Of a stretch of DNA of 64,000 bases, positions 177 through 59,108 are shown in pieces (position 1 is the first letter of the stretch; each line of letters begins with the position of its first letter). Made by a program: the position numbers and the translations under genes. The notes beneath the pieces are model-generated. The model was given only the letters and a program-made list of their open reading frames with translations. It searched no databases and was not told where the DNA came from. The DNA is from Bacilli bacterium (GTDB lineage Bacteria > Bacillota_I > Bacilli_A > RF39 > UBA660): the NCBI GenBank assembly GCA_017409025.1, contig JAFQTN010000001.1, forward strand, positions 71,088 to 135,087, in the 5' to 3' direction.

Positions 177-213
177 AAAAAGTAATTTGGAAAGTTTTTA
201 CGAATAATACTAT
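177..213 (+). promoter_or_regulatory. com-box-like bipartite promoter, copy A
   Basis: AAAAAGTAAT (177-186), 12-nt spacer, TACGAATAATAC (199-210). The same element occurs at 23091, 42851 and 56936. Confidence 0.5.
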
Positions 214-228
214 TGAGGAGGTATAAAA

Positions 229-1083
229 ACGAAAGATAATAAGTTAGAAACAATTACAAATTTATTCGAAGGAAAGGAAATAAGAAGTATCTGGGATAGC
301 AAAAAAGAAGATTATTATTTTAGTGTAGTAGATGTTATATCAGCACTCACTAATAGTCCAGAACCAAGAAAATATTGGTCAGTTATGAAAACTAGGTTAA
401 AAAAAGAGGGTAGTGAAGTGACTACAAAATGTAGTCAGTTGAAAATGTTGTCCCCAGACGGGAAAATGAGATTAAGAGATGTATTAGACACTGAAGGAAT
501 ATTTAGATTGATTGAATCGGTTCCAAGTCCGAATGCTGAACCATTTAAATTATGGCTTGCTAAGTTAGGAAGACAAGAAGTTGATAATATATTCGATCCA
601 TCAAAGGGAATAGATAAAATGATAGATTATTATCTTAAAAAAGGATATACTCTTGAATGGATCGAAGCAAGAATAAAAGCAATTATAAGTAGGAAAAAAT
701 TAACAAAGGTTTGGAATCAATCTGGAATTGAAGATAATATGGAATATGCAATACTAACAAATGAAATCTATAAAGAATGGTCTGGTATGACTGCTAGTGA
801 ATATAAAAATTATAAAGGAATAAGAAAAGAATCTTTAAGAGATAATATGACCGATATTGAGGTTGTGTTAACTGATTTGGGTGAAATTGCTACAAGAGAA
901 TTAACTAAAGAACATAAACCAATTGGTTTAAAAGAAAATAAAAAAATAGCTAAAATGGGTGGTAATGTATCCAAAGTAGCTAGAGATGATATTGAGAAAA
1001 AATTAGGAAAAACAATTATTAGTGACACTAATTCATTAGGATATAAATATGAAAAGGATAACTTTAAAATTGAACATAAATAA
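229..1083 (+). CDS. Bro-N domain protein with DinD-like C-terminal region (antirepressor / DNA-damage-inducible family)
   Basis: The frame is open from 217. Residues upstream of the first ATG (385) read ..FEGKEIRSIWDSKKEDYYFSVVDVISALTNSPEPRKYW, which is typical of Bro-N. ACG at 229 sits 8 nt after GGAGG, where an ATG would be expected. Confidence 0.65.
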   Translation, partial: TKDNKLETITNLFEGKEIRSIWDSKKEDYYFSVVDVISALTNSPEPRKYWSVMKTRLKKEGSEVTTKCSQLKMLSPDGKMRLRDVLDTEGIFRLIESVPSPNAEPFKLWLAKLGRQEVDNIFDPSKGIDKMIDYYLKKGYTLEWIEARIKAIISRKKLTKVWNQSGIEDNMEYAILTNEIYKEWSGMTASEYKNYKGIRKESLRDNMTDIEVVLTDLGEIATRELTKEHKPIGLKENKKIAKMGGNVSKVARDDIEKKLGKTIISDTNSLGYKYEKDNFKIEHK

Positions 1084-23090: not shown

Positions 23091-23127
23091 AAAAAGTAAT
23101 TTAAAAAGTTTTTACGAATAATACTAT
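23091..23127 (+). promoter_or_regulatory. com-box-like bipartite promoter, copy B (comEA-comEC)
   Basis: AAAAAGTAAT (23091-23100), 12-nt spacer, TACGAATAATAC (23113-23124). Confidence 0.55.
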
Positions 23128-23152
23128 TGAAGGACCAATAAAGGAGGTAAAT

Positions 23153-23833
23153 ATGAAATTAATTAGAAAACTAAAATATCCAATAACCATAATCTTATTT
23201 ATATTAATAATTCTCTATGTAATCTATATAAAGAATAATTTAAATAATTCTAAATATGAAAATATAGTTATAGAAAATGATATTTTAAAAGAAGAAACTG
23301 ATGTAAAAGATGAAGAAGATATTATTAAATATAATGTTGATATAAAAGGAGCTATAAAAAATCCCGGAGTATATCAAGTAGACAGTAATTTAACAGTTAA
23401 TGATGTTATTGATATAGCTGGTGGATTAACAAAAGATGCTGATACTTCAGTAATAAATTTAGCAAAGAAAATCACTGATGAAATGGTTATAATTATTTAT
23501 ACTAAAGAAGAAGTAAAAAATTCTAATATTGTAGATACTGTAATAAAAGTAGTTGAAAAAGAATGTGTATGTCCTAATATACAAAATGATGGATGTTTAA
23601 ATACTGAAATAAAAGATAATATTACAAATAGTGAAAATAATAATTTAGTAAATATTAATACAGCTACTAAAGAAGAATTACAAACTATTAAAGGCATTGG
23701 AGAAAGTAAAGCAGATAGTATTATTAAATATAGAGAACAAAATGGTAATTTTAAAACAATTGAAGATATAAAAAATGTTGAAGGTATAGGAGATACATTA
23801 TACGAGACTATTAAAATATATCTTACAACATAG
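23153..23833 (+). CDS. comEA: Competence protein ComEA (DNA receptor)
   Basis: TM helix, SLBB-like IKGAIKNPGVY, and C-terminal HhH VNINTATKEELQTIKGIGESKADSIIKYRE. Confidence 0.85.
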   Translation: MKLIRKLKYPITIILFILIILYVIYIKNNLNNSKYENIVIENDILKEETDVKDEEDIIKYNVDIKGAIKNPGVYQVDSNLTVNDVIDIAGGLTKDADTSVINLAKKITDEMVIIIYTKEEVKNSNIVDTVIKVVEKECVCPNIQNDGCLNTEIKDNITNSENNNLVNINTATKEELQTIKGIGESKADSIIKYREQNGNFKTIEDIKNVEGIGDTLYETIKIYLTT

Positions 23834-24032
23834 ATATTATATAAAAATAACAACTATATTTTTTTTAATAATAATTATAATATTCACTATCGTATATAAA
23901 AAAGAAAGTATTTATAATGGAAATGAAACAGAAATAGAAGGAATAGTATATAAAAAGAAACAAACTAAAAATAAATTAACACTATATATAAAAGCAAAAG
24001 AAAAAATAGTTATAAATTACTACTCTGAAGAA

Positions 24033-25850
24033 GTGATAAATATTAATTTAGGTGATGAAATAAAAGTAACTGGTACTCTAAAAGTACCACCTAGTAACAC
24101 AATACCTAATCTATTTAATTATAAAAAATATTTATATTATAATGATATATACTATACAGTAACAGCTACCAGTATTGAAAAGACATCAAATAACACTAAT
24201 ATAATATATTATATAAAAGATACAATTTCTTCTAGAATAGATAAAATATATAAATCAAATGAATATATCAAAATATTTCTACTAGGAGATACTTCTTTAT
24301 TAGATGAAAACATTAATGAAAGTTATAGACAAAATGGAATATCTCATTTATTTTCAATATCCGGTATGCATATAAGTCTATTCGCATCAATTATTTTATA
24401 TATCTTAAAAAGAATATCCTATAATAACTATTATAATTATGGAATAGTTATCTTATTTTTATTCGTATATACATTATTAGTTGGTCCTTCACCATCTGTT
24501 ATAAGAAGTTTAATAATGTATATCATATTCTCAATAAATAAAGTGTTTAATTTAAAAACTAAAAACATTGACATAATGTGTTTAGTATTAATTATAATGT
24601 TATTAATTAATCCATATTATTTATATAATATTTCATTTCAATATTCATATTTAATTTCTTTTACTTTAATATTGTTTAGTAACAAAATAAAAAATATCAA
24701 GAATAAAATTAATAAAAGTTTGTATATCTCATTTGTTTCATTTTTAGTATCTTTCCCTATATGTATATATAATTTTTATCAAGTAAATATTATTTCAATA
24801 TTCCTAAATTTATTAGTGATTCCTCTAGTGAATATTTTTATTTTTCCACTTTCATTAATAAGTTTCATTATCCCAAAAATAAGTTATATACTATCTTTAT
24901 TTACAAATATTCTTCAAAGTATATCATTATTTATATATAACAATGATTTTGGAGTAATCATATTCCCTAAATCCAGTATCTTACTAGTGATAATATACTA
25001 TATATTTATATATTCTTACTTATATAACAAAAAGATAATTTTAATTTATCTACTTATGTTTGCACATAAATTTTATAATTATATAGATACTTCAATGGAA
25101 GTAATTTCATTAGATGTAGGCCAAGGAGATTCTGTGTTAATTAAGTACCCATATAATGAGGCAAATATTTTAATAGATACCGGGGGAATATCAAATAGCG
25201 ATTACAGTATAACTATAAATAAAACAACTCCATATTTAAAAAGTGTTGGAATAACGCACATAGACTACCTAATTATTACACATGGCGACTACGATCATAT
25301 GGGTGAAGCAATTAATTTAGTAGAAAACTTTAAGGTAGAGAAAGTAATCTTTAATTGCGGTCAGTTTAATAATTTAGAAAAAGATCTAATTAAAGTTTTG
25401 AATAAAAAGAAAATCCCATATTATTCTTGTATTAAAGAATTAAATATAGATGATAATAAATTATACTTTTTAAATAATAAAGAATATAGTAACGAGAATG
25501 ATAATTCATCAGTAATTTATACTGAACTAAATAAGCGTAAATTTCTATTTATGGGAGATGCAGGAATAGAGGTTGAAGAAGACTTAATTGAAAAATATAA
25601 CTTGCAAGATATTGATATTTTAAAAGTAGGACATCACGGAAGCAAGACAAGTTCTTCAAAAGAATTTATTAATGAAATTAATCCGAAATATTCAATTATA
25701 AGTGTAGGAAAAAATAATAGATATGGTCATCCGAATGATAGTGTATTAGAAAATTTAGATAATTCAAAAATATATAGGACAGATCAAGATGGAAGTATTA
25801 TGTTTGAGATTAAGAATAATAAACTAAAAGTTGAGACGAGTGTACCATAG
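24033..25850 (+). CDS. comEC: DNA internalization competence protein ComEC/Rec2 (with C-terminal metallo-beta-lactamase domain)
   Basis: Competence domain ..YRQNGISHLFSISGMHI.. and MBL LDVGQGDS..HGDYDH..VGHHGS. The first canonical start is GTG 24033, but the frame is open from 23790. Confidence 0.85.
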   Translation: MININLGDEIKVTGTLKVPPSNTIPNLFNYKKYLYYNDIYYTVTATSIEKTSNNTNIIYYIKDTISSRIDKIYKSNEYIKIFLLGDTSLLDENINESYRQNGISHLFSISGMHISLFASIILYILKRISYNNYYNYGIVILFLFVYTLLVGPSPSVIRSLIMYIIFSINKVFNLKTKNIDIMCLVLIIMLLINPYYLYNISFQYSYLISFTLILFSNKIKNIKNKINKSLYISFVSFLVSFPICIYNFYQVNIISIFLNLLVIPLVNIFIFPLSLISFIIPKISYILSLFTNILQSISLFIYNNDFGVIIFPKSSILLVIIYYIFIYSYLYNKKIILIYLLMFAHKFYNYIDTSMEVISLDVGQGDSVLIKYPYNEANILIDTGGISNSDYSITINKTTPYLKSVGITHIDYLIITHGDYDHMGEAINLVENFKVEKVIFNCGQFNNLEKDLIKVLNKKKIPYYSCIKELNIDDNKLYFLNNKEYSNENDNSSVIYTELNKRKFLFMGDAGIEVEEDLIEKYNLQDIDILKVGHHGSKTSSSKEFINEINPKYSIISVGKNNRYGHPNDSVLENLDNSKIYRTDQDGSIMFEIKNNKLKVETSVP

Positions 25851-25863
25851 AAAGGACAATTAT

Positions 25864-26697
25864 ATGAATGAGATAAAAAAATATACTGAAAAAATGCTTG
25901 AAGAGATAAAGCATATAGATAGAAATGGTAACGAATATTGGGAAGCAAGAGAATTGCAACCTATTTTAGAATATTCTCAATGGAGAAGATTTGAAAATGC
26001 AATAGATAAAGCTAAAATAGTATGCAAGAATTCAAAAGTAAATGTCGATGACCATTTTGCCAATGTCGGCAAAATGGTTCAAATAGGTTCAAAAACCAGG
26101 AGAGAATTAACAGACTATAAGTTATCAGGATATGCTTGTTATCTAATAGTTCAAAACGCCGATTCCAGAAAATATTGTATTGCTTTAGGACAAACTTACT
26201 TTGCTATTCAAACTAGAAAACAAGAATTAAATGAAAAAGAATATAATGAGCTTACGGAAGATGAAAAAAGATTTTATCAAAGAAATTTAACTAGAAAAGG
26301 AAATTATTCTTTGAATATTGCTGCAAAGAATGCTGGAGTTAAAAATTTTGATAAATTCCATAATTCAGGATGTAAAGATTTATATAATGGTGAAACAGCA
26401 AATGATATCGCCAAAAGAAAAAATCTGAGATATAGAGAAGATATATTAAACAATATTGGGAGTGATGAACTAATTGCAAATTTATTTAGAATTTATCAAG
26501 CAGAACAAAAATTAAGGAATGAAAATGTTAAGTTAGAAAATGAAGCAAATAAAACTCATTATGAGGTTGGAAAAGAAATTAGAAATACTATTAAGAAACT
26601 CGGTGTAACGATGCCAGAAAATCTTCCAACACCAGATAAAAGTTTAAAAGAATTGGAAAAGGAGAATAAAAATCAATTGCTTAATAAAAAGATGTGA
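25864..26697 (+). CDS. dinD: DNA-damage-inducible protein D (DinD)-like
   Basis: EYWEARELQPILEYSQWRRFENAI..LSGYACYLIVQNADSRK..GQTYFAIQTRKQEL matches E. coli DinD as recalled. ATG 25864 follows GAAAGGA. Confidence 0.7.
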   Translation: MNEIKKYTEKMLEEIKHIDRNGNEYWEARELQPILEYSQWRRFENAIDKAKIVCKNSKVNVDDHFANVGKMVQIGSKTRRELTDYKLSGYACYLIVQNADSRKYCIALGQTYFAIQTRKQELNEKEYNELTEDEKRFYQRNLTRKGNYSLNIAAKNAGVKNFDKFHNSGCKDLYNGETANDIAKRKNLRYREDILNNIGSDELIANLFRIYQAEQKLRNENVKLENEANKTHYEVGKEIRNTIKKLGVTMPENLPTPDKSLKELEKENKNQLLNKKM

Positions 26698-34573: not shown

Positions 34574-34681
34574 AAAATATCCCTTCCTAAAATAATATAT
34601 GTAAATAATCAAAAAAAGTTTAAAAAAAAAAACATTTATGATACAATTATATTAGTAAAATAAAAAGGTGGCGATTAAATA

Positions 34682-42850: not shown

Positions 42851-42887
42851 AAAAAGTAATCTACAAGTTTTTTAGGAATATTACTAT
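42851..42887 (+). promoter_or_regulatory. com-box-like bipartite promoter, copy C (dnaG-sigA-trmK)
   Basis: AAAAAGTAAT (42851-42860), 12-nt spacer, TAGGAATATTAC (42873-42884). Confidence 0.4.
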
Positions 42888-42899
42888 TGGAGGGACAAA

Positions 42900-44630
42900 A
42901 TGAATATTACCAACGAACTAATAAATGAAATCAGAAATAAAATTGATATTGTTGAAATTGTATCTAATTATGTCCCACTTACACAAAGAGGTAAAAATTA
43001 TTTTGGTGTATGCCCATTTCATGATGACCATTCGCCTAGTATGAGTGTCTCAAGGGAAAAACAAATATATACATGCTTTTCATGTGGAGCTACAGGAAAT
43101 GTATTTACATTCGTATCAGAATATGAACATATTAATTTCTATGAAGCGGTTAAACTACTAGGAAATAAAATAGGTTACAACTTAGGAATTTCTAAGGTTA
43201 CAAAAAGTAGTGAAGATAAATCGCTAGAAATATATGATTCGGCATGCAAATTTTATCAAAATAATCTGAATACAGCACTAGGAAAAAATGCTTATGAATA
43301 TTTAGAAAAAAGAAAAATAGATAAAGAAACAATTAAAAAGTTTAAAATTGGTTTATCTTTATCCAAGGTGTCATTAACAGATTATCTACTTAATAAAAAA
43401 GTTTCTCTAAAGGAATTAATATCTTTAGGAATAAGCAACGAAAATGGTAGCGATTTATTTATAAATAGAATAATCTTCCCATTATATGATTTACAGGGAA
43501 ATGTCGTAGCATTTTCTGGTAGAATTTATAACACTAAAGATTCAAGTAAATATATAAATACTAAAGAAACAAAAATCTTTAAGAAAGGTAATTTATTATA
43601 TAATTACCATCAAGCCAAAGACATTTTAAAGAAGAGTGAATCAATCATTGTAATGGAAGGATTTATGGATGTAATAAGAGCATCTACAATAGGAATCGAT
43701 AATTGCGTGGCAACAATGGGGACAGCTTTTACTAAACAACATGCAAATTTATTAAGAAAAATGACAGATAATATTGTATTATGTTTTGATGGTGATGAAG
43801 CAGGAGCAGAAGCAACAACAAGTGCTATTGAAATTTTAAAAGAAATAAATGTAACACCAAAAGTAATAAGATTAGAGGAAAATTTAGACCCCGATGAATA
43901 TATTCTAAAATATGGTGCAGCTAGTTTTAAAGCAAAAATAAATAACACTGAAAGTGCCATTGAATTCTTAATGAAACTACATAGATCAAATAAAAATTTA
44001 AAAGATTTAAATGATGTTTCAAAATATATAGATGAATCATTAAAAGAACTTATAAATACTAATGATGAAATTCTAGTAGAACTAACACTAAAAAAAATGG
44101 TAGCAGAATTTAATATAGAGTATGATACATTAAAAAAGAAATATGATTTTCTAATTAAAGAAAAAAATAAAGAAAACAAAAGAGATAATGTATACGAAGT
44201 AAAGCCAAAAACTAAATATGATAAATATAGTAAAGCAGCAAGAACATTGATTCATTACATGATAAAAAATCAATCAATTATTGATTTAGTAGAATCTAAA
44301 ATAACATATTTTAAAGAAGATGAAATTAGAATCTTATCAAATGAAATAATATATTATTATCATAAATATGGAATTTTCAATATAGCTGATTTTATTAGTT
44401 ATATATCTAATAAAGACGAAATATTAAAAACATTTAATGAAATTATAAATATGGATTTGAAAGAAAAATATAGTAAAGAAGAAATAGAGGACTATATAAA
44501 AGTAATTAACTCATATCCAATAAATAAAAAAACAGATGAATTAAATCAAAAATTAAAAGAAGAAAAAGATCCGATAAAACAAGCAAAAATACTATCAGAA
44601 ATTTTAATATTAAAGGGAGTGAAACAATGA
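42900..44630 (+). CDS. dnaG: DNA primase
   Basis: Zinc finger [18 protein letters not shown] and [21 protein letters not shown]. Confidence 0.95.
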
Positions 44631-45730
44631 TAGAAGAAATAAAAACATATGAAGATAGAAAAATAGAACTAATTCAAAAAGGAAAAGAAACTGGATATAT
44701 TACATATGAACAATTAGCGACATCTCTAAAAGGGTTGGATTTAGATAGTGATTCTCTAGATGACTTATATAATAGTTTAATGGAAGCTAATATTCAAGTA
44801 GTAACCGATGAGGAATTAGCAGGAACCGAAGAAGATGAAAATCCAGCAGATGGTGGAATAGAAGATTTATTAAAAGATGACAGTCTAGCTAAAGAATTAA
44901 CAATTAATGATCCAGTTAGAATGTATTTAAAAGAAATAGGTAAGATAAGTCTTTTAACCCTAGAAGAAGAAACAGAATTATCAGCAAGAATTGTAGCTGG
45001 AGATGAAGATGCTAAAAACAAATTAGCTGAATCAAATTTAAGATTAGTAGTATCAATTGCTAAAAGATATGTTGGAAGAGGAATGCTTTTTTTAGACTTA
45101 ATCCAAGAAGGAAATATTGGATTAATGAAAGCAGTGGAAAAATTTGATGCAGAAAAAGGATATAAATTCTCAACATATGCTACATGGTGGATAAGACAAG
45201 CCATAACAAGAGCAATTGCTGATCAAGCAAGAACCATCAGAGTACCAGTTCACATGGTTGAAACAATCAATCGATTGTCAAGATTTCAAAGACAACTGAC
45301 TCTAGAATTAAATAGAGAACCAACAGAAGAAGAATTAGCTAAAAAAATGCACTTATCATTAGAAAAAGTAAGAGAAGTAATAAAAATTGCTCAAGAACCA
45401 GTTTCTTTAGAAACACCAATTGGTGAAGAAGATGACTCACACTTAGGAGATTTTGTAAAAGACGAAAGAACTATGTCACCGGAAGAATACACTGTTCACG
45501 AATTGTTAAAAGATGAAATTTCTGATGTATTACTAACTTTGACAGAAAGAGAAGAACAAGTATTAAGACTTAGATTCGGATTAGATGATGGCTGCTGCAA
45601 AACACTTGAAGAAGTAGGGCAAATGTTTGGGGTAACAAGAGAAAGAATAAGACAAATTGAAGCAAAGGCCTTAAGAAAATTACGTCATCCATCAAGAAGT
45701 AGAAAATTAAAGGATTTCTTAAATGATTAA
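44627..45730 (+). CDS. sigA: Primary sigma factor SigA/RpoD
   Basis: [28 protein letters not shown] and region 4 [23 protein letters not shown] overlap with dnaG. Confidence 0.95.
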
Positions 45731-46385
45731 ACTATCAACAAGACTAGAAGCAATTTCTAGTCTTGTTCCAAATAAGAGTAAAGTAATTGATGTTGGATGT
45801 GATCATGGACTTTTAGATATCTATTTGTATCAAAAAAAAATAAGTGATAAAATAATCGCTTCAGATATTAATGAGAATGCCTTAAAAAATGCTAAAGAAA
45901 ATATTGAAAAAAATAAATTAGAAAAACTAATTGAAACCAGACTAGGCAATGGCTTGGATACATTATATGAAACTGACGAAATAGATACAATTATTATATC
46001 TGGAATGGGTGCACATACTGCCGTAGATATTTTAAAAAATAATCTGCAAAAATTAGAAAAAATTAAGACAATTATAATACAAAGTAATACTAAATTAGAA
46101 TTTTTAAGAAAAGAAATAATAAAAATAAATTATTTAATTGAAGACGAAATTTTAATCGAAGATAATAAAAAAATATATACAATTATTAAATTTCGAAAAG
46201 GAAAGAAAAAATATTCTAAAAAAGAATTATATTTTGGTCCAATACTATTAAAAAAGAATACTAAGTTATTCCAAAATAACAATAAATTAGAATTAGAAAA
46301 ACTATATCTATTGCTAAAATTATTACCTAAAAATAAAATAATAGACAGATATAAAATAAAAAAGAAGATAAGTATGTATGAATAA
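45723..46385 (+). CDS. trmK: tRNA (adenine22-N1)-methyltransferase TrmK
   Basis: [13 protein letters not shown]...[15 protein letters not shown], plus the conserved position after sigA. Confidence 0.8.
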
Positions 46386-56871: not shown

Positions 56872-56880
56872 ATTTTATAA

Positions 56881-56910
56881 ACACCTAGTTTAAACTGGGT
56901 GTTTTTTTTA
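56881..56910 (+). terminator. Rho-independent terminator
   Basis: ACACCTAGT/ACTGGGTGT stem + T8. Confidence 0.7.
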
Positions 56911-56935: not shown

Positions 56936-56973
56936 AAAAAGTAAAATATATAACATCTTACGAATAATACTTA
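56936..56973 (+). promoter_or_regulatory. com-box-like bipartite promoter, copy D
   Basis: AAAAAGTAAA (56936-56945), 13-nt spacer, TACGAATAATAC (56959-56970). Confidence 0.4.
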
Positions 56974-56992
56974 TGAAGAATCATAGAAAGGA

Positions 56993-58063
56993 GTGAAAAA
57001 AATAAAAAAGATAATATTGATATTGTTATTTAGCTTATTACCTATTGTTCAAGTTAATGCTTCCGAATATCCAGAAATAACAGAAGATGTTGAAATAAGA
57101 TATAAATGGTATAAAGAAATAGTAACAGGAGATTACTATTCCAAAAAAGATATTAAAGAAGGCGATTTAGTAAATGAAAACAATATAAAGTATGGAAGAA
57201 TTAATGATTTTTACGAATCACAATATTGTGAATTATCCGAAGAATATTATAAGTTAGAAAAGCAACTTATGAAAGTTTATAAAAAGGTTGAAAATGTAAG
57301 ATATATTTTATTTGAAGATTTCAATTATGAAGATAATATAAAGATTTATCAGAGTAATCAAGAGATAAATTTTGAAATACTTAGTAATGAAAATAATAAA
57401 TTAAAAATAGATTTAAAGAAAAGATATATGAGTGAAAAACTCCTATTTATTATAGAAAATGCAAAAAACTATAAAATAAGCTTTTATACAGATAAAAACT
57501 TAGTAAATTATATTATATCAAAAGAAATAAATGAAGAGAAAATATTCTCTCCAGATAAAACATGGATAACAGAAAGGACAACCTATGTAAATTACCATAC
57601 ATATGAGAGTTTAGAAAATAGTGATTTGACAACCAAAACATCAGAATATTATAGATGTAGATATAGAGAAATCTATGTTTACAAATATGAAATAAAAAAA
57701 GAATATTATGATGATAATTATCATTTAAATGTAGAAGGATATATAAAAGATGTTAATGACTATAAAATTTTCTACAAGGGAATACCTATAACAAATACAA
57801 TTGAAATTACTAAAGAAAAAATTGTTAAAGAACCAAAGTATATTTATATTGAAAATGAGAGTATAACAAAAGAAAATGATTCTTCAAAAAATGAAACTAC
57901 TTGTTTGCCAGAAATAAAAACAGAAGTAAAAAGAGAAATAGTAGAAAAAGAGATTTTTAAAATACCTAAAAAAATATATATAATTATTATTTTAATGATT
58001 ATGACAATTATTATTTTAATAATAAATATAATAAAAAATATGTCGCACAAAAATATTAACTAG
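56993..58063 (+). CDS. Hypothetical secreted protein with C-terminal TM anchor
   Basis: Signal peptide ..LLPIVQVNA/SE and a C-terminal helix IYIIIILMIMTIIILIINII. No recognisable domain. The GTG start abuts the SD, so the start is uncertain. Confidence 0.45.
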   Translation: MKKIKKIILILLFSLLPIVQVNASEYPEITEDVEIRYKWYKEIVTGDYYSKKDIKEGDLVNENNIKYGRINDFYESQYCELSEEYYKLEKQLMKVYKKVENVRYILFEDFNYEDNIKIYQSNQEINFEILSNENNKLKIDLKKRYMSEKLLFIIENAKNYKISFYTDKNLVNYIISKEINEEKIFSPDKTWITERTTYVNYHTYESLENSDLTTKTSEYYRCRYREIYVYKYEIKKEYYDDNYHLNVEGYIKDVNDYKIFYKGIPITNTIEITKEKIVKEPKYIYIENESITKENDSSKNETTCLPEIKTEVKREIVEKEIFKIPKKIYIIIILMIMTIIILIINIIKNMSHKNIN

Positions 58064-58126
58064 TATTGTCGAATTCGTATAAAAAATAAATAATATATGC
58101 TAAATTAAATTAGAAAGAGGAAAAAC

Positions 58127-58441
58127 ATGTTGAAAATAAATTTTGAATTTAGAAAAGGTATATTCTTCATAAGATTAATAGGAAACCTGAACAATAAAAA
58201 TTATAAAGAAAAAGAAAATATGTTGAAAGATTTAATCATAGAAAACAAATTCAAATATATAGTCATAAACACTAACTATTTGAAAAATATAGATTTAGAT
58301 GGTTTGAATTATCTATTAGAAATATTCTACATTACTAAATCAAACGAAAGTAATCTAATCATATGTGATAAAAATAATATTTTTAAAAGGTTATTAAATA
58401 AGAGTATTCCAAGTATAAAAGAGGAAATAGAAGTTCTATAA
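58127..58441 (+). CDS. STAS-domain anti-sigma-factor antagonist (SpoIIAA-like), Ser-to-Asp variant
   Basis: 104 aa. KYIVINTNYLKNIDLDGLNYLL aligns to SpoIIAA HIVLNLEDLSFMDSSGLGVIL. Confidence 0.55.
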   Translation: MLKINFEFRKGIFFIRLIGNLNNKNYKEKENMLKDLIIENKFKYIVINTNYLKNIDLDGLNYLLEIFYITKSNESNLIICDKNNIFKRLLNKSIPSIKEEIEVL

Positions 58442-58451
58442 AGGAGAAAAA

Positions 58452-59108
58452 ATGGATAATTTGGGAGAAATAATAGTTGCAAATGAGGGATTAATTTATA
58501 AAATAATAAATAAATATAGAAATTATTTTGAAATAGAAGATTTATATCAAGTAGCTGTAATGGGACTAATAAAAGCGAGTAAAAATTATAATAGTGAATA
58601 CGGTGCAAAATTCACATCATATGCTTACCCATTTATATTAGGTGAAGTAATAAAATACATAAATGAATTTAGAAATATTAAAATAAATAAAGATGTAGCA
58701 AAACTATATACAAAAATACTAAAAGCAATTGAGATTCTTTCTCAAAAATTAATGAAAATGCCATCCAATTATGAATTATCTTTATTTTTAGAAATTGATG
58801 AATCACTAATTGAAGAAGTTTTAATGGCAAATACAACAGTTGAAAGTCTAGATAGAATAATAAGCCAAGATGGTAAAGATTTAGAATTATACAACAAATA
58901 TGGTTATTGTGATCATGGAATAGAAAACTATCCACTAATATCAGAATTAGAAAAATTACCACCATTAGAAAGAGCAATAATCCAAGCAAGATATTATGAA
59001 AATATGTCGCAAAGAGAAACTGGAATTACACTAGGTATGTATCAAGTTGAAGTATCACGTAGAGAAAAGAGGATTCTTGAAAAGTTAAAGGATAATATTG
59101 CAGCATAA
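58452..59108 (+). CDS. Group-3 sigma factor of the SigF/SigG/SigB type
   Basis: DLYQVAVMGLIKASKNY, FTSYAYPFILGEVIKYINEFRNIKINKDVAKLY, and region 4 SQRETGITLGMYQVEVSRREKR. Confidence 0.75.
   Translation: MDNLGEIIVANEGLIYKIINKYRNYFEIEDLYQVAVMGLIKASKNYNSEYGAKFTSYAYPFILGEVIKYINEFRNIKINKDVAKLYTKILKAIEILSQKLMKMPSNYELSLFLEIDESLIEEVLMANTTVESLDRIISQDGKDLELYNKYGYCDHGIENYPLISELEKLPPLERAIIQARYYENMSQRETGITLGMYQVEVSRREKRILEKLKDNIAA

What the first reader, a model, noticed from the sequence alone, without database searches (positions are those of the whole stretch)
177..222. Four copies of a bipartite com-box-like promoter (AAAAAGTAAT-N12-TACGAATAATAC)
The same ~37-nt element sits just upstream of four + strand transcription units.
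- 177-213: Bro-N/DinD-like gene.
- 23091-23127: comEA-comEC.
- 42851-42887: dnaG-sigA-trmK (core reads TAGGAATA).
- 56936-56973: secreted hypothetical 56993-58063 (spacer 13).

The conserved blocks are AAAAAGTAA(T/A), a T-run, then TACGAATAATAC, followed within about 5-25 nt by a Shine-Dalgarno. TACGAATA is the core of the streptococcal ComX (SigX) cin-box/com-box. It also resembles the GAAT -10 of SigH-type sigma factors that drive late competence genes, and comEA-comEC is a classic target.

Inference: the element marks a competence-type alternative-sigma regulon in this organism, including genes not normally linked to competence. No ComX/SigH-like sigma gene lies in this window.
Basis: partly seen in the sequence, partly recalled or inferred. 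Interest (0 to 1): 0.62.

Follow-up and report, generated by a model that had tools for sequence, protein, structure and literature searches.

The report
SigH-type competence promoter, four copies
Four genes or operons in this uncultured, spore-forming gut bacterium (DNA-uptake genes comEA-comEC, primase and main sigma factor dnaG-sigA, and two others) carry the same special promoter, which closely matches those read by the SigH/ComX family of alternative sigma factors; this is a known kind of control, found here in a lineage where it had not been described.

Summary
All four copies lie where stated. All are on the + strand and intergenic, just 5' of a gene. About 0.02 matches are expected per window by chance. 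They score 31.8-34.5 bits against 13.8 for the next candidate.

Relatives fetched through ComEC, the neighbouring sigma and RadC show a promoter-type footprint. AAGTAA, GAAT and a downstream TG are almost invariant (1 of 36 core columns varies). The spacer and T-run change freely (36 of 48; p = 3e-12).

The element reads AAAGTAAWW-N11/12-nnnGAAT. That is the SigH promoter of Listeria (AAAGGAWTT-N11-GGCGAAT) with one -35 base changed. Its -10 half equals the streptococcal SigX box (T-run + TACGAATA).

The targets match known SigH/SigX regulons:
- comEA-comEC and dnaG-sigA, as in Listeria;
- radC, in 4 of 4 relatives;
- in relatives, also a YhcG-type nuclease gene and a double-glycine-leader peptide gene.

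The element is not an RNA structure, a Spo0A box or a sigma-70-type promoter.

Not shown: the sigma gene itself, any transcription start, and the status of comG, comF, dprA, ssb and coiA.

Verdict: a new member of a known kind, moderate interest.

The parts
177..218 (+). Site 1: promoter element (AAAAAGTAAT 177-186, spacer, TTTTACGAATAATAC 196-210, tail TATTGAGG 211-218) before the Bro-N gene
   Evidence: 34.5 bits; terminator 122-155 just upstream
217..1083 (+). Bro-N domain protein gene. The frame is open from 217, with no ATG/GTG/TTG before 385.
   Evidence: PF02498; phrog_15286, 7e-108
23091..23132 (+). Site 2: promoter element before comEA
   Evidence: 34.5 bits; conserved in L018, L019, L020, L021, L054; hairpin and U-run upstream
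23153..23833 (+). comEA
   Evidence: SLBB + HHH_3
23790..25850 (+). comEC. The frame is open from 23790 and overlaps the comEA end. The first canonical start is at 24033.
   Evidence: (P0002, 685 aa)
25831..26697 (+). DinD-type (Bro-N) gene directly after comEC, probably co-transcribed
   Evidence: NF008573, 326 bits, above cutoff; present after comEC in L018-L020
42851..42892 (+). Site 3: promoter element before dnaG-sigA-trmK (core TAGGAATATTAC). No terminator upstream, so read-through from queA is possible.
   Evidence: (31.8 bits); orthologous copy in L047
42900..46385 (+). dnaG (42900-44630), sigA/rpoD (44627-45730), trmK (45723-46385)
56936..56978 (+). Site 4: promoter element (spacer one base longer) before the secreted-protein gene
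   Evidence: 32.7 bits; conserved in L142, L143, L144; terminator 56879-56904 upstream
56993..58063 (+). Secreted, C-terminally anchored protein of a lineage-restricted family; function unknown
   Evidence: no family hit; 84 representatives; confident all-beta model; no PDB match
58127..59108 (+). STAS gene (58127-58441) and SigB/F/G-type sigma gene (58452-59108). They have their own conserved upstream region with TGTCGAA-type boxes (58041-58047, 58067-58073). Possibly also read through from site 4.

Best explanation
The element is the promoter of a small regulon read by an alternative sigma factor of the SigH/ComX family, encoded outside this window.

Proposed mechanism:
- Region 4 of the sigma would contact AAAGTAAWW, the lineage's version of the SigH -35 AAAGGAWWW.
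- Region 2 would contact nnnGAAT 11-12 nt downstream.
- A T-run precedes the -10, as in streptococcal SigX boxes.
- Transcription would start about 8-11 nt after GAAT, inside the conserved T(A/T)(A/T)TG(A/G)AG block. This gives very short leaders of about 10-25 nt.

When the sigma is active, the cell would co-induce several units:
- DNA uptake: comEA-comEC, with a DinD-type gene.
- radC.
- Bro-N/DinD-like and YhcG-type DNA-handling genes.
- A double-glycine-leader peptide gene.
- A secreted envelope protein gene next to the STAS-sigF-like operon.
- An extra promoter for dnaG-sigA-trmK.

Shown: the repeat, its statistics, its position and orientation, the footprint in relatives, the match to published SigH/SigX promoters, and the gene content.

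Inferred: that it is a promoter, which sigma reads it, where transcription starts, and that the genes are co-induced.
For: 1. Statistics: four co-oriented intergenic copies against about 0.02 expected; a discrete score class.

2. Footprint, using only sites retrieved through proteins. The groups are 5 comEA, 4 secreted-protein and 3 radC sites. One of 36 core columns (AAGTAA, GAAT, TG) varies, against 36 of 48 spacer and T-run columns (Fisher p = 2.8e-12; alignments). The spacer also changes length (9 or 10 nt) while the boxes stay.

3. Match to known promoters:
- Listeria SigH promoters are AAAGGAWTT, an 11-nt spacer, then GGCGAAT (PMC4754846). The window has AAAGTAATT, 11 nt, then TACGAAT.
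- C. difficile SigH promoters have the same layout, for example GAAAAAGGTATCTACAATATACAGAGCGAAT (PMC7438776).
- The streptococcal SigX box is a T-run abutting TACGAATA about 20 nt before the ATG (PMC6001120).

4. Regulon content matches:
- An operon ending in dnaG-rpoD, and comEABC, are SigH-dependent in Listeria.
- sigA2, one of the two sigA genes, and spoIIAA are SigH-dependent in C. difficile.
- comEA and radC are SigX core genes.
- radC carries the motif in 4 of 4 relatives (L087, L145, L146, L147).

5. The element is a separate class from the housekeeping promoter. The pilC/prepilin-peptidase operon has a conserved extended -10 (TGATACAAT) and no motif. No sigma-70-type match coincides with the motif in a consistent register.

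6. The lineage sporulates (SpoIIGA, SigE, YqfD, YabP-like, SirA). SigH is general in such Bacillota (established knowledge).
Against: - No SigH/ComX-family gene could be looked for. The fetch from genomes and the genome search were closed, and the genome is absent from the genome collection scanned.
- No RNA run holds this organism, so no transcription start is known.
- The -35 has T where every characterised SigH promoter I could read has the second G of AGGA. This holds in all 20 sites examined.
- The invariant T(A/T)(A/T)TG(A/G)AG block after the -10 is not part of any SigH or SigX description I found. It could be an operator.
- comG, comF, dprA, ssb, coiA and recA could not be examined.
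- The pilC/prepilin-peptidase operon lacks the motif.
- Some sites in relatives (L034, L047, L054, L069, L087, L097) were found with a pattern that fixes the core, so they say nothing about core conservation.
Confidence: 0.72

Rival explanations
1. The motif is read by the SigB/F/G-type sigma encoded 1.4 kb downstream of site 4 (58452-59108). In this reading site 4 is the autoregulated promoter of a secreted protein-STAS-sigma operon, and the other sites are its regulon.
For: - Alternative sigma operons are often autoregulated.
- No terminator is evident between the secreted-protein gene and the STAS gene.
- The gene order and the motif are conserved together in L142-L144.
- The sigma is an unusual SigF-like protein without a SpoIIAB kinase gene.
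Against: - The motif fits the SigH/SigX consensus. By my knowledge of the SigF (GCATR...GGnRAnAnTW), SigG and SigB (GTTTAA...GGGWAW) consensus sequences, it does not fit those.
- The STAS-sigma pair has its own strongly conserved upstream region with two TGTCGAA-type boxes. This suggests a separate, Spo0A-type control.
- The sigma sits in a sporulation gene cluster (YabP-like, YqfD), as expected for a forespore sigma.
Confidence: 0.1
2. The conserved blocks are the binding site of a transcription activator or repressor (ComK-like, a response regulator, or an XRE protein) at a weak housekeeping promoter whose -10 is the AATAAT inside GAATAATAC.
For: - AATAAT resembles TATAAT.
- The invariant T(A/T)(A/T)TG(A/G)AG block and the frequent AAAGT in the spacer are not explained by a sigma alone.
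- An A-rich block followed by a T-rich block superficially recalls ComK AT-boxes.
Against: - With a 17-nt spacer the -35 would be AAGTAA, which matches TTGACA at 2 of 6 positions.
- The scanner finds no sigma-70-type site in register with the motif.
- The invariant G of GAAT has no role in a sigma-70 -10.
- The AATAAT part is the less conserved part in relatives (GAATGTAAT, GAATATACC, GAATATAAC).
- AAAA-N5-TTTT boxes are not kept in site 4 or its orthologues (by inspection).
Confidence: 0.08
3. The element is not regulatory DNA. It would be a structured RNA leader, a Spo0A binding site, or a recently copied promoter cassette without shared control.
For: - Sites 1 and 2 are nearly identical over about 50 nt, including most of the spacer.
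- TTACGAA is one base away from the Spo0A box TGNCGAA.
Against: - The element folds no better than shuffled sequence (z from -0.3 to +0.75).
- RNAalifold finds 0 pairs in 12 sequences.
- Rfam finds nothing at the sites.
- The C required by a Spo0A box is not conserved in relatives, while GAAT is.
- Orthologous sites in diverged relatives keep the boxes while the spacers differ. This is selection, not recent copying.
Confidence: 0.03

Closest known systems
SigH-dependent promoters of Listeria monocytogenes (comEABC, comGA-G, coiA, LMRG_00908-dnaG-rpoD, lytG; PMC4754846)
   Same: - Two-block layout: a 9-nt A-rich -35 (AAAGGAWTT there, AAAGTAAWW here), an 11-nt spacer, and a -10 ending in CGAAT/GAAT.
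- The same pair of targets, comEA-comEC and a dnaG-rpoD operon.
- Boxes are conserved while the spacer is polymorphic among relatives.
   Different: - The second G of AGGA is T in every copy here.
- A T-run precedes the -10, and an invariant T(A/T)(A/T)TG(A/G)AG block follows it.
- Leaders are very short.
- The host is a sporulating, uncultured lineage of 25.6% G+C.
- The sigma gene was not seen.
Streptococcal SigX (ComX) box, also called cin-box or com-box (T-run + TACGAATA; PMC6001120)
   Same: - Three window copies carry TTTT(A/-)TACGAATA exactly, about 20-35 nt before the start codon.
- comEA and radC are members.
- A small double-glycine-leader peptide gene carries the motif in a relative, as Cib-like bacteriocin genes do in streptococci.
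   Different: - Streptococcal boxes have no conserved -35. Here AAAAAGTAA is invariant at fixed distance.
- In relatives only GAAT, not (T)ACGAATA, is conserved.
- ComX proteins are known from Lactobacillales, and this lineage sporulates.
Sporulation/transition-state SigH (Spo0H) promoters of Bacillus subtilis and Clostridioides difficile (PMC7438776; B. subtilis consensus RnAGGAwWW-N11-12-RnnGAATww and sigA operon P3 from my own knowledge)
   Same: - The consensus and spacing.
- A sigA operon as target.
- A site next to a spoIIA-like (STAS-sigF-like) operon.
- The lineage carries sporulation genes.
   Different: - In B. subtilis the DNA-uptake genes depend on ComK, not SigH.
- No spo0A, spoVG or ftsZ targets could be examined here.

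Membership tests
SigH-dependent promoter (Bacillus/Listeria/Clostridioides type) | -35 element RnAGGAwWW / AAAGGAWTT | tested here: inconclusive
   AAAGTAAWW matches 8 of 9 positions, but the second G of AGGA is T in all 20 sites (consensus).
SigH-dependent promoter (Bacillus/Listeria/Clostridioides type) | 11-12 nt between the 9-nt -35 and the 7-nt -10 | tested here: met
   The distance from GTAA to GAAT is 16 or 17 nt in all 17 aligned sites, which equals a spacer of 11 or 12 nt.
SigH-dependent promoter (Bacillus/Listeria/Clostridioides type) | -10 element ending in GAAT | tested here: met
   GAAT is invariant in all sites, including those retrieved through proteins.
SigH-dependent promoter (Bacillus/Listeria/Clostridioides type) | Targets overlap known SigH regulons | tested here: met
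   comEA-comEC and dnaG-sigA are targets here. For comparison: comEABC and dnaG-rpoD in Listeria; sigA2 and spoIIAA in C. difficile.
SigH-dependent promoter (Bacillus/Listeria/Clostridioides type) | A SigH-family sigma gene in the same genome | not testable with these tools
The genome is absent from genome contigs. The window holds only SigA, SigE and a SigB/F/G-type sigma.
SigH-dependent promoter (Bacillus/Listeria/Clostridioides type) | Sigma-dependent transcription start a few bases downstream of the -10 | not testable with these tools
   No RNA run holds the organism.
Streptococcal SigX/ComX box (cin-box) | TACGAATA octamer (CGAATA kept in variants) | tested here: not met
   The octamer is exact in 3 of 4 window sites. 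Site 3 and relatives have GGAATA, TGGAAT or ATGAATG, so only GAAT is conserved (for the streptococcal variants).
Streptococcal SigX/ComX box (cin-box) | T-run immediately upstream of the box | tested here: met
   TTTT(A) or TCTT precedes the box in most sites.
Streptococcal SigX/ComX box (cin-box) | No conserved -35 element | tested here: not met
   AAAAAGTAA is invariant at fixed distance.
Streptococcal SigX/ComX box (cin-box) | Precedes the late competence genes (comE, comG, comF, dprA, ssbB, coiA, radC, cinA) | tested here: inconclusive
   Met for comEA-comEC and radC. The pilC/prepilin-peptidase operon lacks it. comG, comF, dprA, ssb and coiA could not be located.
Spo0A box | TGNCGAA heptamer | tested here: not met
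   TTACGAA is one base off, and the C is not conserved in relatives. True TGTCGAA boxes exist elsewhere, upstream of the STAS gene.
Structured RNA leader or riboswitch | Conserved secondary structure with covariation | tested here: not met
   z-scores from -0.3 to +0.75; 0 consensus pairs; no Rfam match.

The most novel reading that the evidence does not exclude
In this sporulating, uncultured gut Bacilli lineage a single SigH-type sigma would run both roles that are split in model organisms. One is the transition-state or sporulation-entry role: the sigA operon, and a unit next to the STAS-sigF-like operon. The other is the competence role: comEA-comEC, radC, DNA-handling genes and a double-glycine-leader peptide.

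Its promoter would be an evolutionary intermediate that joins a SigH-type -35 to the streptococcal SigX-box -10 with its T-run.

A second control layer may exist, because several regulon genes (comEC, the Bro-N gene, the secreted-protein gene) seem to start at non-canonical codons.
Probability: 0.22. Interest if true: 0.6.

Novelty: new member of a known kind. Interest (0 to 1): 0.4.

Why it matters
It gives a concrete, testable promoter model (AAAAAGTAAW-N9/10-TTTTAnGAATAWTAC-TWWTGRAG) for a hidden competence-type regulon. The host is an abundant, uncultured, spore-forming group of ruminant and other gut Bacilli.

With a whole genome, the model should list the lineage's full set of co-induced genes. 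It should also point to the sigma factor that could be expressed artificially to make such bacteria transformable, as was done for Staphylococcus aureus (PMC3486894).

It also shows that the pairing of comE with dnaG-sigA under SigH, known from Listeria, extends to a distant sporulating lineage. The motif combines features of SigH and ComX promoters, which bears on how the two sigma families are related.

Tried and rejected
- Whole-genome scan for the motif and for a SigH/ComX gene: not possible, because the fetch from genomes and the genome search were closed.
- My first window scan used a wrong spacer and found nothing; corrected.
- Genome-contig scan with AAAGTAA-N13/14-TACGAATAATAC: 17 chance-like hits in unrelated taxa. 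L006, L010 and L014 lie in coding DNA or have no gene downstream. The window's own copies were not returned, so this genome is not in that collection.
114 of 120 hits look like chance; 6 were usable.
- RNA runs: none. DNA runs only.
- Read laying on the comEC start region placed only fragments of related organisms and did not settle the start codon.
- Walking out of the window failed twice, because neither protein is on record.
- Earlier notes by place (relatives) returned nothing. Notes on this genome mention no sigH, comG, comF, dprA or ssb.
- Rejected readings: RNA structure; Spo0A box; sigma-70-type promoter; ComK AT-boxes (by inspection).
- The two Bro-N proteins are not close paralogues (BLASTP E = 1.4). 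They share only the Pfam domain and a weak phrog_8036 match.
- Function of the site 4 protein: a confident model but no PDB fold match (best TM about 0.1).
- The Britton 2002 paper on the B. subtilis SigH regulon is not held under the PMC id I tried, which I gave from memory. That consensus is therefore cited from my own knowledge.

Full report
**Observation.**
- Each consists of AAAAAGTAA(T/A), then 9 or 10 variable bases, then a T-run joined to (T)A(C/G)GAATA(A/T)TAC.
- The pattern AAGTAA-N13/14-TA[CG]GAATA occurs four times on the + strand and never on the - strand. About 0.02 are expected in a window of this composition, 25.6% G+C.
- With a two-block weight matrix the four sites score 31.8-34.5 bits and the next independent position 13.8 bits. 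There is no continuum of weaker copies.
- All four are intergenic and point at the next gene.
- Sites 1, 2 and 4 follow directly on terminator hairpins, so they head independent transcription units.
- Site 3 follows queA without a terminator. Read-through could therefore supply the vegetative expression that dnaG-sigA needs.

**Genes behind the sites.**
- Site 1: a Bro-N protein (phrog_15286).
- Site 2: comEA, comEC and a DinD equivalog that follows comEC directly.
- Site 3: dnaG, sigA (RpoD equivalog) and trmK.
- Site 4: a secreted, C-terminally anchored protein without family assignment. It is followed by a STAS gene, a 218-aa SigB/F/G-type sigma gene, an XRE gene, a YabP/YqfC-like gene and yqfD.
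- The window also holds spoIIGA-sigE. The organism therefore belongs to a sporulating lineage. Earlier notes describe it as an uncultured low-GC gut member of the Bacilli.

**Access to the rest of the genome.** My single scan of the genome collection returned only 17 chance-like hits in unrelated taxa and not the window's own copies, so this genome is not in that collection. I therefore worked through relatives.

**Footprinting.** ComEC has many relatives of 67-82% identity in gut metagenomes.
- Four comEA-comEC loci (L018-L021) keep AAAAAGTAA and GAAT at the same distance. The spacer is rewritten, and the bases before GAAT vary (ACGAAT, TGGAAT, CGGAAT, ATGAAT).
- The sigma gene downstream of site 4 is 78-90% conserved. 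Three loci (L142-L144) keep the gene order and the motif before the secreted-protein gene, again with free spacers of 9 or 10 nt.
- Counting only sites retrieved through proteins, 1 of 36 core columns varies against 36 of 48 spacer and T-run columns (p = 2.8e-12).
- This is the pattern expected of a promoter. It is the same test the Listeria SigH study applied.

**More members of the regulon.**
It was mostly noise, but six low-GC contigs carry the full extended motif with a ribosome-binding site.
- Two of these are the dnaG and comEA orthologues.
- The others precede radC (Pfam UPF0758_N), a YhcG/DUF1016 PDDEXK nuclease gene, a 44-aa peptide gene with a double-glycine leader (MNILNDIDLFNIVGG|ASSS...), and one gene that runs off the contig. 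The YhcG family is the same family that replaces the DinD gene after comEC in L021.
- RadC homologues fetched independently show the motif in all three further loci (L145 23.8 bits, L146 30.3 bits, L147 a weaker but recognisable copy).
- The pilC/prepilin-peptidase operon of the window has no motif. It has a conserved extended -10 promoter, TGATACAAT, which shows what the housekeeping promoter of this lineage looks like.

**Comparison with known promoters.**
- In Listeria monocytogenes the SigH-dependent units are LMRG_00908-dnaG-rpoD, comEABC, comGA-G, coiA, lytG and one more. Their promoters are AAAGGAWTT, 11 nt, then GGCGAAT (PMC4754846).
- The window's AAAGTAATT, 11 nt, TACGAAT differs by one -35 base. 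It drives the same pair, comE and dnaG-sigA.
- C. difficile SigH promoters have the same layout. They drive spoIIAA, spo0A and one of the two sigA genes, sigA2 (PMC7438776).
- The streptococcal SigX box is a T-run abutting TACGAATA about 20 nt before the ATG of comEA, radC, coiA, dprA, ssbB, comGA, comFA and Cib-like bacteriocin genes (PMC6001120). The -10 half of three window copies is identical to it.
- The element thus joins a SigH-type -35 to a SigX-box-type -10. For membership, spacing, GAAT and targets are met. The -35 is one base off in every copy. The sigma gene and the transcription start could not be tested.

**Rivals.**
- RNA element: excluded. Folding is no better than shuffled sequence, there are no consensus pairs and no Rfam hit.
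- Spo0A box: excluded, because its required C is not conserved. Real TGTCGAA boxes lie upstream of the STAS gene and are conserved in four genomes.
- Sigma-70-type promoter: not supported.
- The adjacent SigB/F/G-type sigma as reader: this remains the most serious rival (about 0.1). The motif does not resemble SigF, SigG or SigB promoters, and the STAS-sigma pair has its own conserved control region.
- A further lead is the 'hypervariable sigma' noted elsewhere in this genome. I could not read it. Competence sigmas of this family are known to evolve fast (my knowledge).

**Verdict.** It is a new member of a known kind of regulon in an uncultured sporulating lineage. My confidence that a SigH/ComX-family sigma reads it is about 0.7, and about 0.9 that it is a dedicated promoter class of some alternative sigma or regulator. 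Interest is moderate (0.4). What is missing is the sigma gene, a transcription start and the whole-genome list of sites.

Noticed in passing
window 23790-24032 (comEC 5' part) and 217-384 (Bro-N gene 5' part); L142 8490-8606: Of 55 long ORFs in the window, the two with the longest in-frame stretch before any ATG/GTG/TTG are comEC (81 codons, with a conserved N-terminus including a membrane helix) and the site 1 Bro-N gene (56 codons). Both lie in motif-driven units. L019 has GTG where the window has GAG followed by ATA, and L054 has GAG-ATT. The site 4 gene orthologue in L142 has no canonical start before its signal peptide, only an ATA 7 nt after GGAG. This could be ATA/ATT initiation or start-codon decay.
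   Followed up: partly
window 58041-58047 and 58067-58073; L142, L143, L144 upstream of the STAS gene: Two TGTCG(A/C)A boxes about 20 nt apart (Spo0A-box consensus TGNCGAA) lie just upstream of the STAS-sigma genes and are conserved in four genomes. They suggest Spo0A-type control of this SpoIIAB-less sigF-like operon.
   Followed up: partly
window 56993-58063: The secreted protein behind site 4 belongs to a small lineage-restricted family (84 representatives among 1.84 billion). The model has a confident all-beta ectodomain (pLDDT above 90 for residues 33-265), two invariant cysteines, a disordered linker and a C-terminal membrane helix. No PDB fold match was found (best TM about 0.1).
   Followed up: partly
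window 211-218, 23125-23132, 42885-42892, 56971-56978 and all related sites: A block T(A/T)(A/T)TG(A/G)AG directly after GAATAWTAC is kept in all 17 aligned sites, across unrelated genes. In several sites it runs straight into the Shine-Dalgarno sequence. It is not part of published SigH or SigX descriptions that I read. It may be the start region of the transcript or an operator.
   Followed up: no
L021 12083-15364 compared with window 25831-26697: The position directly after comEC is variable. It holds a DinD/Bro-N gene in the window and in L018-L020. In L021 it holds two YhcG/DUF1016 PDDEXK nuclease genes plus other genes. A YhcG gene with its own copy of the motif occurs in L069.
   Followed up: partly
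L034 84-236 (- strand): A 44-aa peptide gene with a double-glycine leader (MNILNDIDLFNIVGG|ASSS...) carries the full motif in a relative. It could be a bacteriocin or a pheromone precursor. No processing transporter lies on the short contig.
   Followed up: no
window 34613-34681; L018-L020: The pilC (T2SSF)/prepilin-peptidase operon has a conserved extended -10 promoter (TGATACAAT) and no competence-type motif. It gives a reference for the lineage's housekeeping promoter.
   Followed up: yes
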